Assembly: GCF_048403405.1 (NCBI RefSeq)
Contig: NZ_CP183129.1
Direction: 5' to 3' (one strand)
Length of the DNA stretch: 64,000 nucleotides
Source of the DNA: Escherichia coli
Lineage (GTDB): Bacteria > Pseudomonadota > Gammaproteobacteria > Enterobacterales > Enterobacteriaceae
Part shown: positions 5,290 through 13,474 of the stretch, piece after piece
How positions within the stretch are numbered: the first letter of the stretch is position 1
How the letters are laid out: every line of letters begins with the position of its first letter
The notes under the pieces: model-generated
The model's input: only the letters and a program-made list of their open reading frames with translations
The model's database searches: none
Told to the model about the DNA's origin: nothing
Program-made: the position numbers and the translations under genes

Positions 5290-5307
5290 GTTCGCAAAGT
5301 GGTAACT

Positions 5308-5354
5308 GCCGTGTGTTCTCTTAAAGCTATCGTTAATGGGCACACGGCATTTTT
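5308..5354 (+). terminator. putative intrinsic terminator downstream of glgP
   Basis: Inverted repeat gccgtgtg (5308-5315) / cacacggc (5341-5348) followed by a T-run; the loop is long, so confidence is modest. Confidence 0.4.
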
Positions 5355-5773
5355 ATATCAGATAAACGATATGTCATGACAATTTACAGACAGCATCGAT
5401 ATATAATTCATATTTATTAATTCTTAATAATATTTCTCATCTGAGTATGTATCATACAATAAGCATTATAAATAACTAATAAATTATTTATTATATTTAT
5501 ATATTGCCCCACTCTTCAGTTATCCTGTCTAAAATAAATCTCTTTGTTTTCAAATGACTGTATTTTTATATAAAGTCAATCATTGCGAGCATGGATTCTT
5601 TTAGTTATATTACCAAGCAGCTCATATAATATTTTCCAGCCATTCTATCTCTTATTTTTTTTCTGTGGTTAACTACACCAGCTTTATTCATTTAAATAAT
5701 GTGACTTGTTAAAGCTGAATGTAAAAATAATCGCCAATATTGCTTGGATTTTTTAACAAAAGGAAAGGTATAA
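5355..5773 (+). promoter_or_regulatory. strongly AT-rich control region upstream of the fimbrial operon (probable promoter, likely nucleoid-protein silenced)
   Basis: About 420 bp of very AT-rich DNA with several TATAAT-like hexamers, ending in an AAAGGAAAGG Shine-Dalgarno before the ATG at 5774. Confidence 0.4.
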
Positions 5774-6478
5774 ATGAAATTCAATCTATCTAATTTATCC
5801 GCAGTTTTACTCGCATCAGGTATGCTGATGTCAACTGCGGTAACCGCTGCGCCAGGCGATGCATCACAATTTGGTGGTGCGGATACAGACTGGAGCACCG
5901 TTGATTATCCAAAACTCACCGATATGGATAGCAACACCGATGCGATGGGCGGAAACATCCGCTTTACTGGTCGTGTGGTTAAAGCGACGTGTAAGGTTGC
6001 TACAGAATCGAAACAGATTGAAGTGGTACTGCCAGTCGTACCTTCTAACGCTTTCACGGGCATTGATACCGAAGCAACGGGTGCCAGTAACCAGACTGAC
6101 TTCAACATTAAATTGACTGATTGTAGCAATACGGACAGTCAAAATATTGAATTTCGTTTTACTGGCGTAGCAGACGGTGCCAACCAGACGCTTGCCAATG
6201 AAGTGGAAGGAGCTGCTGATGCTGATGGTACTGGCGAAGCGGGAGCTACGGGTGTAGGGATTCGTATTTATTCTAAAAACACGACAACTGATGGCCTGAT
6301 TAAGCTGAACACACAAACTCCCCAGGGGAGTAGTTCTTCAGCAGCCTACGTGATTCCTGGCGATGCAGCCACTCATGATTTTACTGCGGCATTTACCGCG
6401 GGCTATGCTCAGAACGGTAGTACCGTTGCACCAGGTCTGGTGAAATCAACGGCAAGTTTCGTCGTGCTGTACGAATAA
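5774..6478 (+). CDS. fimbrial major subunit (FimA/LpfA-like pilin)
   Basis: Signal peptide MKFNLSNLSAVLLASGMLMSTAVTAA; conserved pilin core GNIRFTGRVVKATCKV...DC (disulfide pair); C-terminal ...ASFVVLYE resembles the pilin C-terminal strand. First gene of a chaperone-usher cluster. Confidence 0.85.
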   Translation: MKFNLSNLSAVLLASGMLMSTAVTAAPGDASQFGGADTDWSTVDYPKLTDMDSNTDAMGGNIRFTGRVVKATCKVATESKQIEVVLPVVPSNAFTGIDTEATGASNQTDFNIKLTDCSNTDSQNIEFRFTGVADGANQTLANEVEGAADADGTGEAGATGVGIRIYSKNTTTDGLIKLNTQTPQGSSSSAAYVIPGDAATHDFTAAFTAGYAQNGSTVAPGLVKSTASFVVLYE

Positions 6479-6490
6479 TTACAGCAAGAT

Positions 6491-6524
6491 AATTTCAGGT
6501 TACAGTTACTTGTAACCTGAAATT
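6491..6524 (+). terminator. stem-loop between pilin and chaperone genes (putative attenuator or partial terminator)
   Basis: Perfect inverted repeat aatttcaggttaca ... tgtaacctgaaatt lying 13 nt after the pilin stop codon. Confidence 0.45.
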
Positions 6525-6598
6525 AATATTACATGTTTATTTGTAATAAATAGACATGCATCAGTAATTACAATTAATTTCATCTACAAGGATGCAGT

Positions 6599-11079: not shown

Positions 11080-11824
11080 CGTGCTGATATGCATTTTAAT
11101 ATGTTGCACAAATGCGCAGGCAGGAGTTGTTGTTGGCGGTACTCGTTTTGTTTACCCAGAAAAGCAGTCATCAATTTCGGTCGAGCTTAAAAATACTGCC
11201 AGTAAAGATATGCTGGTTAAAATTTCCGTGACACCTGATGATGGACGTCAGTTAAAAGGGACACTGGAATCCCAGCCTTTACTTCCAGATAAGGCGTTTA
11301 TTGCCACACCACCATTATTGGTACTTAAACAAGATAAAAATACCAAAATAAGAATCAATCGCGTGGGGGGGCAGTTACCTATAGATCGTGAGAGTTTATT
11401 TATACTGAATATTGCAGCGTTACCTGCTCAGGAACAAAACTCACAGCTTAAGAATGAAAATCAACTCCAGGTGGCTGTACGTAATAGGATGAAAATATTT
11501 TACCGCCCAGAGACGTTATCAGGTAATCCACTTGACGCTTATCAACAGTTACGCTGGTCGCGAAACAATGAAGCTGTCACCGTTTTTAACCCTACGCCCT
11601 GGTATGTGACACTCTATAATTTATCTATTGATGGTAAAAGCATAAATGGTGGCATGGTTGCACCATTTAGTCATCGCCAACAGGATTGGTGTCAGCGGCA
11701 AGGATATTGTGAGATTAACTGGCAAACACTAGATCTTTACAATAATGCCTTACCCGTATGGAGCGTAAAATTAAATGTTTTACAAAATAATGCTATTATG
11801 GGTGCAGTAGCGATACATGGATAA
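11021..11824 (+). CDS. second periplasmic fimbrial chaperone (PapD-like)
   Basis: 267 aa ORF with motifs GTRFVYPEK, ATPPLLVLK, LQVAVRNRMKIFYRP, NPTPWY. The real start is probably 11045 or 11072 (the ATG at 11072 overlaps the upstream stop, ATGATTAA). Confidence 0.85.
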   Translation: MMYNQEMRMHQFPLSSLMINVLICILICCTNAQAGVVVGGTRFVYPEKQSSISVELKNTASKDMLVKISVTPDDGRQLKGTLESQPLLPDKAFIATPPLLVLKQDKNTKIRINRVGGQLPIDRESLFILNIAALPAQEQNSQLKNENQLQVAVRNRMKIFYRPETLSGNPLDAYQQLRWSRNNEAVTVFNPTPWYVTLYNLSIDGKSINGGMVAPFSHRQQDWCQRQGYCEINWQTLDLYNNALPVWSVKLNVLQNNAIMGAVAIHG

Positions 11825-12968
11825 CTGGAGAAGCATGATGCTTACTTATTTTTGGGGGAATATAAAAGCAATTTGTATATTGTTTGTTCTTTTAGTCAGT
11901 AGCTGCTATAACATAGTATATGCTGAAGATATGGGACGGGATCGCGCCTTTTGTTATCCTGGTGCACCAGGTAATAATACTACTCCTGCGACATTTTCTT
12001 ATAATTTTGGTACGGTAATTGTCTCAGATGTTAATAATAATTCGCCTGGGACAGTATTACCCTCGCAGGACTGGAAAATAGGGCATTATAAGGCTTATTG
12101 TAATTCTCTGGATGATTATGAGGTTTATTTTTCTGGTGTTTCTGGGATTGATCCGTCAGGAGCGTCTGGTGATCATCAGGGGAGCGATATATTTATTCCT
12201 TTGACTCATGAAATATCTGTCTCGACACATGTAAAGCTCTATAATAAAAATGGCACAATGACAGATAAGGCAGTACCTTTTGACAACTATAGCACCAATT
12301 ATCCAGCAGACAGAAGTAAACCATCAAGTTGGGCCTCAGGAACAGAAGGTTATATAAAAATCAGACTTGATAAAAAAATAATATCCGATATCTCAATAAA
12401 TAACGTATTGCTGGTTTCTTTGTATGTCAGCCAGTTTCCAACAGAGCACGGACCAATTCCAGTATTTAATGCTTATATTGGCAACTTAAATATTGAAGTT
12501 CCACAAGGTTGCACAATTAATGAGGGAACTAGTTTTACCGTTAATATGCCGGATGTCTGGGCCAGCGAATTAAGTCGGGCTGGTGCTGGAGTAAAACCAA
12601 CAGGTATTTCTCCAGTGGCAACCACTATTCCGATAAATTGTACGAACAAAGATATTGATGCCGTAATGACGCTGGTTTTCGATGGCAATATTTCATCAAC
12701 GAGAGATGTTAATGGTCGGCAAAGCATTATTCAGGCGGAGGATAACCCCGACGTTGGCATTATGATTATGGATAGCCAACAGGAATCCGTAGACTTAAAT
12801 GCATTGGCTGCGCATGTTGGTGTGCCATTTAAGTTAGTTGAAAACCAGGCTGAGTCAGCTCAGACGGCAGATGTGACTTTTCTGTCTCTCCCTGTAAGTA
12901 CCACAGGGCGACGCCCTGCTGCAGGCCGTTATAATGCCCTGGCTGTTTTGCGGGTGGAATACCAATGA
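11817..12968 (+). CDS. putative two-domain fimbrial tip adhesin
   Basis: 383 aa; N-terminal signal or anchor, large N-terminal domain without obvious pilin motifs, C-terminal pilin-like domain with a Cys pair and ...LRVEYQ terminus; last gene of the operon. Confidence 0.65.
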   Translation: MDNWRSMMLTYFWGNIKAICILFVLLVSSCYNIVYAEDMGRDRAFCYPGAPGNNTTPATFSYNFGTVIVSDVNNNSPGTVLPSQDWKIGHYKAYCNSLDDYEVYFSGVSGIDPSGASGDHQGSDIFIPLTHEISVSTHVKLYNKNGTMTDKAVPFDNYSTNYPADRSKPSSWASGTEGYIKIRLDKKIISDISINNVLLVSLYVSQFPTEHGPIPVFNAYIGNLNIEVPQGCTINEGTSFTVNMPDVWASELSRAGAGVKPTGISPVATTIPINCTNKDIDAVMTLVFDGNISSTRDVNGRQSIIQAEDNPDVGIMIMDSQQESVDLNALAAHVGVPFKLVENQAESAQTADVTFLSLPVSTTGRRPAAGRYNALAVLRVEYQ

Positions 12969-13313
12969 TGTGTGAGTCAGTGCAGAATCGGATTAGCCCG
13001 TTTTTAGCCATCGGTAGGGTAAAGTTTGATGGAAAATATGGGTTATGTGCCGATGTATCCCACAATGAAATAACCCTCGAGGGAAAGGAATCAGCGCGAT
13101 GAACAAATTCACGGTGTTTTGCTGCTAGGTGTGGTATTTCTCGGCTTTATTATTGTACCGTTCTTGATATGGCCGACGGTGGTTGCGCTGGCTGCTTGTA
13201 TTATTACGCTGAGTTTTCTGGGGAGATACTGTTCTCTATCCCGCTCATGATCAGGCATATTTCACTTCTGGAATTACAACTTTGGTTATCGGTTGTATAT
13301 GCGCTTTGTCCAT

Positions 13314-13410
13314 GCCGGATGCGACGTGAACGTCTTATTGGCCTACAAAATCATGCAAATTCAATATATTGCATAAACCACGTAGGCCTGATAAGCGTAG
13401 CGCATCAGGC
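13314..13410. repeat. REP/BIME-type palindromic repeat cluster
   Basis: gccggatgcgacg (13314-13326) and the hairpin aggcctgataagcgtagcgcatcaggc (13384-13410) followed by a T-run; classic REP consensus-like sequence. Confidence 0.6.
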
Positions 13411-13434
13411 AGTTTTTTTGTTTATCATCAGTCT

Positions 13435-13458
13435 CAGGTCAGATTGAAATCTGACCTG
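13435..13458 (-). terminator. hairpin just downstream of glpD (putative terminator)
   Basis: Perfect inverted repeat caggtcagat / atctgacctg with a 4-nt loop, 17 nt beyond the glpD stop. Confidence 0.4.
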
Positions 13459-13474
13459 ACCACCTTACGTTAAA

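What the first reader, a model, noticed from the sequence alone, without database searches (positions are those of the whole stretch)
5290..13470. Seven-gene chaperone-usher fimbrial operon filling the glgP-glpD interval
Between two tightly conserved core genes lies a ~7.2 kb block that is visibly more AT-rich than its neighbours. It encodes pilin, chaperone, usher, two minor pilins, a second chaperone and a tip adhesin, all on one strand with overlapping or closely spaced starts. In the K-12 reference, as I recall it, glgP and glpD are nearly adjacent, so this looks like strain-variable accessory content. There is no integrase, IS element or tRNA at the borders, only REP elements on the glpD side, which suggests an old insertion or differential loss rather than a recent mobile island. 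I cannot tell from sequence alone whether it matches a named fimbrial type; the pilin C-terminus (...VLYE) is reminiscent of Lpf-type pilins.
Basis: partly seen in the sequence, partly recalled or inferred. Interest (0 to 1): 0.6.

Follow-up and report, generated by a model that had tools for sequence, protein, structure and literature searches.

The report
Auf fimbrial operon, non-B2 allele
The block between glgP and glpD is the already named Auf chaperone-usher fimbrial operon (aufABCDEFG) of E. coli, here in the version shared with phylogroup D strains, E. fergusonii and E. marmotae, so it is a correct but ordinary finding.

Summary
Window 5774-12968 (+) holds seven intact, co-directional chaperone-usher genes: pilin, chaperone, usher, two pilins, a second chaperone and a two-domain adhesin. 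The block has 41% GC against 52-53% in the flanks and fills the glgP-glpD gap, which is 8185 bp here and 615 bp in K-12.

It is not an unnamed type. It is the positional orthologue of aufABCDEFG ("Auf") of uropathogenic strain CFT073, with the same gene order. Its proteins are only 67-84% identical to CFT073 Auf. The window version is 98.5% identical in DNA to phylogroup D strain 042, whose operon is already catalogued as Auf. It is about 91-92% identical to operons at the same site in E. fergusonii and E. marmotae.

The window type occurs in 228 of 5426 complete E. coli genomes and the CFT073 type in 561. Relics of a PstS-like gene cluster downstream, and the absence of integrase, IS or tRNA, support ancestral presence with differential loss rather than a mobile island. 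Between the two alleles synonymous sites are saturated (dS 1.4-2.6, against 0.11 for glgP) while dN/dS is 0.05-0.13, so both were kept under purifying selection.

The Lpf hint is only family-level kinship. Function is inferred: standard usher-mediated pilus assembly, probably silenced in vitro, receptor unknown. Interest is low.

The parts
5290..5773 (+). AT-rich (28% GC) regulatory region upstream of aufA. It holds the glgP terminator-like hairpin (arms 5304-5315 / 5341-5352), an invariant ATATAATATT block (5624-5633, with a perfect -10 TATAAT at 5625-5630), and an invariant block from 5743 up to the start codon that includes the ribosome-binding site.
   Evidence: GC. Hairpin (I6). Conserved islands come from the five-way alignment of the window, 042, E. 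fergusonii, E. marmotae and CFT073. The generic promoter scan was not enriched over shuffles, so the promoter assignment is inference from conservation.
5774..6478 (+). aufA-type major pilin, 234 aa. It has a signal peptide and an unusual extension of about 35 aa before the donor strand. Its C-terminus is ...FVVLYE.
   Evidence: Pfam PF00419 at residues 62-233, E 1.9e-21. 84% identical to CFT073 AufA. Same WP_000671312.1 as in GN02461 and 042.
6599..7351 (+). aufB-type periplasmic chaperone, 250 aa.
   Evidence: PapD_N E 1.1e-40 and PapD_C E 1.8e-11. 78% identical to CFT073 AufB.
7393..9984 (+). aufC-type outer-membrane usher, 863 aa.
   Evidence: PapC_N, Usher (E 2.7e-199) and PapC_C. NCBIfam NF011740 scores 1078 bits, above its 995 cut-off. 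81% identical to CFT073 AufC, 97.6% to E. fergusonii.
9984..10547 (+). aufD-type minor pilin, 187 aa (the ORF can also start at GTG 9975).
   Evidence: Best NCBIfam matches are FimF, FimA and BcfE, all below cut-off. 81% identical to CFT073 AufD.
10555..11079 (+). aufE-type minor pilin, 174 aa.
   Evidence: Best NCBIfam matches are FimF, FimI and BcfF. 71% identical to CFT073 AufE.
11045..11824 (+). aufF-type second periplasmic chaperone, 259 aa (the ORF extends upstream to 11021).
   Evidence: PapD_N E 1.8e-29 and PapD_C E 3.4e-07. 67% identical to CFT073 AufF. Same WP_001306326.1 as in 042.
11838..12968 (+). aufG-type two-domain tip adhesin, 376 aa. The N-terminal domain of about 190 aa has no Pfam match; the C-terminal pilin domain spans residues 217-376.
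   Evidence: Pfam PF00419 at 217-376. Matches the LpfD structure 5AFO, E 9.2e-18, over residues 112-374. 83% identical to CFT073 AufG.
13017..13129 (+). Relic of the junction between two PstS-family genes (end of the first, first codons of the second: MNKFT...). These genes are intact in O157:H7, IAI39, E. fergusonii and E. marmotae.
   Evidence: 82% identical to the O157 interval. Read directly. Intact genes seen.
13134..13307 (+). Frameshifted N-terminal relic of a membrane protein of about 200 aa that lies next to glpD in O157 and CFT073. RefSeq marks a pseudogene at 13107-13321.
   Evidence: tblastn 73-81% identity and blastn 89% to O157. Pseudogene annotation.
13313..13409 (.). Pair of REP elements in opposite orientation, followed by a T-run. 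It overlaps an Rfam ES036 (CssrF) hit at 13347-13389. Similarity to the K-12 interval resumes at about 13300.
   Evidence: Sequence read directly. Rfam 43.6 bits against a gathering score of 37.6. blastn to K-12 at 13300-13600.
13434..13459 (.). Perfect 12-bp inverted repeat next to the glpD stop codon. It probably belongs to glpD 3' end formation rather than to the operon.
   Evidence: I2.

Best explanation
This is the Auf chaperone-usher fimbrial operon (aufABCDEFG) in its 'genus-typical' allele, the form found in E. coli phylogroup D strains such as 042, in E. fergusonii and in E. marmotae. Inferred mechanism, from the established chaperone-usher pathway: all seven products are exported by Sec. 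The chaperones AufB and AufF cap the pilin subunits in the periplasm by donor-strand complementation. The usher AufC forms the outer-membrane pore and polymerises subunits by donor-strand exchange. The order would be the two-domain adhesin AufG at the tip, then AufD and AufE as adaptors or minor subunits, then a rod of AufA. Transcription most likely starts in the 28%-GC upstream region, near the conserved TATAAT at 5625-5630. It is probably silenced under laboratory conditions by nucleoid proteins and relieved by AT-binding regulators, as reported for CFT073 auf with TosR. The receptor is unknown. Evolutionary reading: the operon was present between glgP and a PstS-like gene cluster in the Escherichia ancestor. 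It was lost in most E. coli lineages. In phylogroup B2 it is represented by a much more divergent allele. In the window lineage the PstS-like neighbours were deleted, leaving relics.
For: Shown by tools. Gene content and domains. Same site and gene order as CFT073 auf; that block is named the auf operon in the literature (PMC12928451, PMC5956150). DNA homology to CFT073 runs unbroken from 5190 to 12997, including the promoter region, at 74%. 98.5% identity over 22 kb to strain 042, which is listed as Auf-positive in Wurpel et al. 2013 Table S2 together with UMN026 and E. fergusonii. Synteny in E. fergusonii and E. marmotae: with 91.9% and 91.0% DNA identity and 88-98% protein identity. dN/dS is 0.05-0.13 for all seven genes across a saturated synonymous divergence, so the genes were kept functional. 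All seven genes are intact in the window. No mobility genes, tRNA or flanking direct repeats. Relics of PstS-like and membrane-protein genes. Read directly: penultimate Tyr and a Cys pair in every pilin domain, and the conserved Arg (STRLVY / GTRFVY) and Lys (RIKLFYRP / RMKIFYRP) motifs in both chaperones. Mapping these motifs to PapD Arg8 and Lys112 rests on my own knowledge.
Against: There are no expression or assembly data for this allele. For the CFT073 allele, the literature read here reports poor in vitro expression, no fitness defect of an auf deletion in murine UTI, and no defined receptor. Carriers often have damaged copies: aufB is frameshifted in 042, IS1 interrupts the usher in MS 69-1 and OZ392478, CFT073 aufG has an internal stop, and ExPEC XM aufE is frameshifted. 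The generic promoter scan is not above chance. The AlphaFold model of AufG was unusable, so the lectin-domain fold rests on sequence homology to LpfD only. The phylogroup of the window strain was inferred from similarity to 042 and was not typed.
Confidence: 0.9

Rival explanations
1. The operon is a long polar fimbria (Lpf) operon, as the first reader hinted from the pilin C-terminus.
For: LpfA, LpfB, LpfC, LpfD and LpfE models all give significant hits. The adhesin's only solved homologue is LpfD of strain LF82, PDB 5AFO.
Against: All Lpf equivalog scores are far below their cut-offs: LpfC 812 against 1271, LpfA 59 against 221, LpfD 86 against 412. FimD-type and NF011740-type usher models score higher. 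The gene order has seven genes and two chaperones, which to my own knowledge differs from lpfABCDE. Wurpel's table lists LPF and LPF-like as separate loci, and they coexist with Auf in 042, UMN026 and ED1a.
Confidence: 0.02
2. The block is a recently acquired mobile genomic island that inserted between glgP and glpD in this lineage.
For: GC is 11 points lower than in the flanks. The block is present in only 4.2% (this allele) or 14.5% (either allele) of complete E. coli genomes. An Auf-like operon sits at a different site in Citrobacter freundii.
Against: There is no integrase, transposase, tRNA or flanking direct repeat. The same operon lies at the same site in three Escherichia species, with divergence (dS 0.1-0.4) similar to the adjacent glpD-rtcR genes. 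It is always chromosomal and single-copy. Relics of the neighbouring ancestral genes are retained.
Confidence: 0.05
3. The operon is a cryptic, effectively non-functional relic in this strain: never expressed, and on its way to decay.
For: Auf is poorly expressed in vitro, and its loss has no phenotype in mouse UTI for CFT073. Inactivating lesions occur in several carriers. The neighbouring genes in the same interval have already decayed.
Against: All seven reading frames are intact here. dN/dS of 0.05-0.13 over very long divergence shows sustained purifying selection. Non-coding footprints upstream of aufA are invariant across alleles that are saturated at synonymous sites. CFT073 auf is transcribed during mouse infection and is strongly inducible by TosR.
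Confidence: 0.15

Closest known systems
Auf fimbriae of uropathogenic E. coli CFT073 (aufABCDEFG, c4207-c4214; Buckles et al. 2004, cited in PMC12928451 and PMC5956150)
   Same: Same chromosomal site (glgP-glpD). Same seven genes in the same order, with two chaperones and a terminal two-domain adhesin. Nearly the same protein lengths. Homologous promoter region.
   Different: Only 67-84% protein and 74% DNA identity, with synonymous sites saturated. CFT073 carries three extra hypothetical genes between aufG and glpD, whereas the window has only relics there. CFT073 aufG carries an internal stop in RefSeq, while the window gene is intact.
Auf operon of E. coli 042 / UMN026 (phylogroup D) and E. 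fergusonii ATCC 35469, as catalogued by Wurpel et al. 2013 (PMC3559732, Table S2)
   Same: Same allele family. 042 is 98.5% identical over 22 kb and shares identical AufA and AufF proteins. E. fergusonii and E. marmotae operons are 91-92% identical in DNA at the same site.
   Different: 042 has a frameshifted aufB. E. fergusonii and E. marmotae keep an intact PstS-like gene and other small genes downstream of aufG, which are deleted in the window.
Other gamma-1 chaperone-usher fimbriae: type 1 (Fim), Ycb/Elf, Salmonella Bcf, Lpf
   Same: Same domain families and the same inferred assembly mechanism. The usher scores 958 bits on the FimD subfamily model and passes NF011740. The second chaperone best matches NF011739, which I take to be the Bcf second chaperone by accession adjacency (inference). 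Wurpel calls Auf and Ycb closely related and mutually exclusive.
   Different: Different loci. In Auf the adhesin gene is last, after the second chaperone; in Ycb and Bcf it follows the usher (my own knowledge, not tested here). No fimB/fimE-type recombinase or invertible switch was seen upstream.

Membership tests
Chaperone-usher fimbrial operon | Outer-membrane usher with PapC_N, Usher and PapC_C domains | tested here: met
   Pfam E 5e-44, 2.7e-199 and 9.8e-21.
Chaperone-usher fimbrial operon | Periplasmic PapD-like chaperone(s) | tested here: met
   Two genes carry PapD_N plus PapD_C. The conserved Arg and Lys motifs are visible.
Chaperone-usher fimbrial operon | Pilin subunits with the Fimbrial (PF00419) fold and a C-terminal penultimate Tyr | tested here: met
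   PF00419 in AufA and in the AufG C-terminal domain. NCBIfam pilin hits for AufD and AufE. C-termini are LYE, DYQ, TYD and EYQ.
Chaperone-usher fimbrial operon | Fimbriae actually assembled on the cell surface | not testable with these tools
   Requires expression and electron microscopy.
Auf fimbriae (Wurpel classification: usher phylogeny plus locus position) | Locus between glgP and glpD | tested here: met
   Window. CFT073 auf lies at the same site. The literature names the glpD..glgP region as the auf operon.
Auf fimbriae (Wurpel classification: usher phylogeny plus locus position) | Gene order A (pilin), B (chaperone), C (usher), D, E (pilins), F (chaperone), G (adhesin) | tested here: met
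   One-to-one best matches for all seven proteins.
Auf fimbriae (Wurpel classification: usher phylogeny plus locus position) | Usher groups with AufC rather than with other E. coli ushers | tested here: inconclusive
   81% identity to CFT073 AufC. Strain 042, which is 98.5% identical in DNA, is listed as Auf. The best hits in species representatives outside the Auf group are 43-54% identical. No full usher phylogeny was built.
Long polar fimbriae (Lpf) | Proteins reach the LpfA-E equivalog cut-offs | tested here: not met
   LpfA 58.8 against 221, LpfB 174 against 360, LpfC 812 against 1271, LpfD 85.5 against 412, LpfE 68 against 169.
Mobile genomic island | Integrase or transposase, tRNA or att-type direct repeats at the borders | tested here: not met
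   No tRNA in 64 kb. No such genes are annotated. Only short chance-level repeats occur at the borders.

The most novel reading that the evidence does not exclude
The CFT073/B2 Auf studied so far may be the atypical, xenologous allele, while the window allele is the ancestral Escherichia form. The two forms (67-84% protein identity) could then differ in regulation or receptor specificity. If so, the negative phenotypes reported for CFT073 Auf would not transfer to phylogroup D, E. fergusonii or E. marmotae strains.
Probability: 0.25. Interest if true: 0.35.

Novelty: already known. Interest (0 to 1): 0.15.

Why it matters
It matters little beyond correct annotation. RefSeq labels these genes only as 'fimbrial protein', 'chaperone' and 'usher', so naming them Auf links the locus to the existing literature. 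The modestly useful points are three. E. coli carries two discrete, deeply diverged Auf allele families at one site: 228 and 561 of 5426 complete genomes, with no intermediates among more than 99% of carriers. The window form is the one shared across Escherichia species. Auf-carrying E. coli genomes appear to lack the PstS-like gene module that most other E. coli keep, whole or as a relic, at this site. Auf still has no known receptor, so anyone testing its function should know that the CFT073 allele is not representative of all carriers.

Tried and rejected
(1) AlphaFold2 model of AufG from an 8-sequence alignment gave mean pLDDT 38.6, so it was unusable and no fold search was run.

(2) The genome-contig scan with the usher returned only relatives at 43-54% identity and missed the E. 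fergusonii and E. marmotae orthologues. I therefore do not use it to claim absence outside E. coli. Those orthologues were found through protein clusters instead.

(3) The sigma-70 and terminator consensus scan over the locus was not enriched over shuffles: 26 promoter-like sites against 27.1 expected. It was rejected as evidence; the conserved -10 came from the alignment.

(4) I searched the upstream region for an invertible fimS-like switch. Only AT-rich, imperfect inverted repeats were found, and no recombinase gene is present, so this was rejected.

(5) Buckles et al. 2004 (PMC427398) is not held in the library. Its content is cited only through papers that summarise it.

(6) UMN026 (NC_011751.1) is not in the collection. 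IAI39 turned out to lack auf and to carry the PstS-type interval.

(7) Divergence profile against K-12. Identity drops from 99.4-99.8% (window 1-3000) to about 97% in the 3' part of glgP, and to 93.7-97% for about 9 kb beyond glpD. This is suggestive of linked old polymorphism or imported flanks, but the rest of the window also fluctuates between 93% and 99%, so I do not build on it.
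Full report
**Observation**

The window carries glgC, glgA and glgP (2842-5289, + strand) and glpD (13475-14980, minus strand). Between them lie seven co-directional ORFs. The region is 100% identical to E. coli GN02461, a human blood isolate. Its RefSeq annotation gives the gene limits used here:
- 5774-6478
- 6599-7351
- 7393-9984
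- 9984-10547
- 10555-11079
- 11045-11824
- 11838-12968

The operon has 41.1% GC and its 484-bp upstream region has 28.1%. The flanks have 52.4% and 52.7%.

- The usher has PapC_N, Usher and PapC_C domains (E 2.7e-199 for the Usher domain).
- Both chaperones are PapD-type.
- Three proteins are single-domain pilins.
- The 376-aa protein has a pilin domain at residues 217-376. It also has an N-terminal domain of about 190 aa without any Pfam match, which is the typical layout of a tip adhesin.

In K-12 the glgP-glpD gap is 615 bp and holds only the yzgL pseudogene. The window has no tRNA, and the interval has no integrase or IS. REP elements lie at about 13313-13409.

**Identity**

A megablast of the interval against 5426 complete E. 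coli genomes showed several alternative contents at this site:
- the window-type fimbrial operon;
- a fimbrial operon about 76% identical, followed by three hypothetical genes;
- one or two PstS-family genes plus a small membrane protein;
- the K-12 relic.

CFT073 carries the 76%-type operon at exactly this position. The literature names the glpD..glgP region the auf operon. It lists AufA as major subunit, AufD and AufE as minor subunits, AufB and AufF as chaperones, AufC as usher and AufG as adhesin (PMC12928451, PMC5956150).

The window proteins match the CFT073 Auf proteins one to one over full length:

| Protein | Identity to CFT073 |
|---|---|
| AufA | 84% |
| AufB | 78% |
| AufC | 81% |
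| AufD | 81% |
| AufE | 71% |
| AufF | 67% |
| AufG | 83% |

DNA homology is continuous from 5190 to 12997, promoter region included, at 74%.

Table S2 of Wurpel et al. 2013 lists Auf in B2 strains. It also lists Auf in the phylogroup D strains UMN026 and 042 and in E. fergusonii. I fetched the 042 locus.
- It is collinear with the window at 98.5% identity over 22 kb.
- It shares identical AufA, AufF and GlpD proteins with GN02461.

So the window operon is Auf, in the form already catalogued for phylogroup D. The window strain is probably phylogroup D or close to it, but I did not type it.

**Population and evolutionary picture**

- The window-type usher gene is present in 228 of 5426 genomes (205 of them at 99% identity or more).
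- The CFT073-type usher gene is present in 561 genomes (557 at 99% or more; they include Nissle 1917, UTI89 and LF82).
- Both are always single-copy and chromosomal. Only four genomes fall at intermediate identity.

Between the two alleles synonymous sites are saturated (dS 1.4-2.6). The neighbouring glgP has dS 0.11. dN/dS is 0.05-0.13 for all seven genes, and 0.05 for the AufG receptor-binding domain.

The protein cluster that contains the window AufG (90% identity or more) includes E. fergusonii, E. marmotae and other Escherichia sequences. The B2-type clusters are E. coli only.

In E. fergusonii and E. marmotae contigs the same seven genes sit between glgP and glpD, followed by a PstS-like gene and small ORFs. 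Against the window:
- DNA identity is 91.9% and 91.0%.
- Protein identity is 88-98%.
- dS is 0.1-0.4, in the range of the adjacent glpD-rtcR genes.

A third, more distant Auf-like clade (51-77% identity) exists in Citrobacter freundii at an unrelated site.

Downstream of aufG the window keeps two relics:
- the end of one PstS-like gene and the first codons of the next (13017-13129);
- the frameshifted N-terminus of a membrane protein of about 200 aa (13134-13307).

CFT073 keeps an 18-residue PstS relic at the equivalent place. A PstS-like module, whole or as a relic, is found in 4562 of 5426 E. coli genomes. That number roughly complements the count of auf carriers.

The simplest reading has four steps.
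1. The Escherichia ancestor carried glgP-auf-pstS-like-...-glpD.
2. Most E. coli lineages lost auf.
3. Auf-carrying E. coli lost the PstS-like genes.
4. The B2 allele has a much older or foreign origin.

**Mechanism**

Nothing about assembly or expression is shown here. It is inferred from the established chaperone-usher pathway and from sequence features:
- signal-peptide-like N-termini on all seven proteins;
- a Cys pair and a penultimate Tyr in each pilin domain;
- the conserved Arg and Lys motifs in both chaperones;
- an adhesin that lacks a donor-strand extension but has an extra N-terminal domain.

The only solved homologue of the adhesin is LpfD of strain LF82 (5AFO, E 9e-18). However, all Lpf models score well below their cut-offs.

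A five-way alignment of the upstream region shows three conserved islands in otherwise saturated sequence:
- the glgP terminator-like hairpin;
- an invariant ATATAATATT with a perfect -10 hexamer at 5625-5630;
- an invariant block from 5743 to the start codon.

I propose the second island as the aufA promoter. This is inference, because the generic promoter scan was uninformative.

For CFT073, the literature read here reports the following:
- poor in vitro expression;
- strong induction by overproduced TosR (log2 fold change 2.6-6.6);
- no fitness role in murine UTI;
- no defined receptor.

**Verdict**

It is an already named and catalogued fimbrial operon in sequence that is 98.5-100% identical to published genomes. 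The deep dimorphism between the B2 allele and the genus-typical allele, and the mosaic history of the glgP-glpD interval, are worth a sentence in an annotation. They are not surprising for fimbrial loci.

Noticed in passing
window 42635-43307 (minus strand): A RelE/ParE-family toxin gene and a NadS-family gene sit between pckA and envZ (annotated in GN02461). K-12 has no genes there, and its alignment to the window is interrupted at this point.
   Followed up: partly
window 13347-13389 (+): Rfam ES036 (CssrF) sRNA hit at 43.6 bits against a gathering score of 37.6. It lies inside the REP pair between the auf relics and glpD, so it may simply reflect REP sequence.
   Followed up: no
window 5774-5950 (AufA residues about 26-60): The major pilin has an acidic extension of about 35 residues between the predicted signal-peptide cleavage site and the donor strand (234 aa in total). 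The length is conserved in the CFT073, E. fergusonii, E. marmotae and Citrobacter alleles. Its role is unknown.
   Followed up: partly
window 5743-5776: A block of about 33 nt up to and including the aufA start codon is invariant across alleles whose synonymous sites are saturated. That is more conservation than a ribosome-binding site alone needs, so it may be a translational or RNA-level control element.
   Followed up: no
L034 6869-9184 (Logan contig ERR11042405_16323): An Auf-like operon of the Citrobacter-type clade carries two tandem adhesin genes (371 and 374 aa) after the second chaperone, instead of one.
   Followed up: partly
window 1-5289 and 13475-22000: Identity to K-12 is 99.4-99.8% over glgC and glgA. 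It drops to about 97% inside glgP from about position 3000, and to 93.7-97% for about 9 kb beyond glpD (glpD to rtcA). This hints at recombination breakpoints or old linked polymorphism around the hotspot. Against E. fergusonii, glgP dS is 0.98 while auf and the glpD-side genes have dS 0.1-0.4.
   Followed up: partly
L005 2460-3590 (CFT073), L002 7043-7557 (ExPEC XM), L041 17963-18714 (042): Reference Auf operons are often damaged. CFT073 aufG has an internal stop, ExPEC XM aufE is frameshifted and 042 aufB is frameshifted. Two window-type genomes have IS1 in the usher. The window copy is fully intact.
   Followed up: partly
window 16388-17146 (glpR): The glpR gene is intact here, whereas it is annotated as frameshifted in the K-12 MG1655 record used for comparison.
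   Followed up: no
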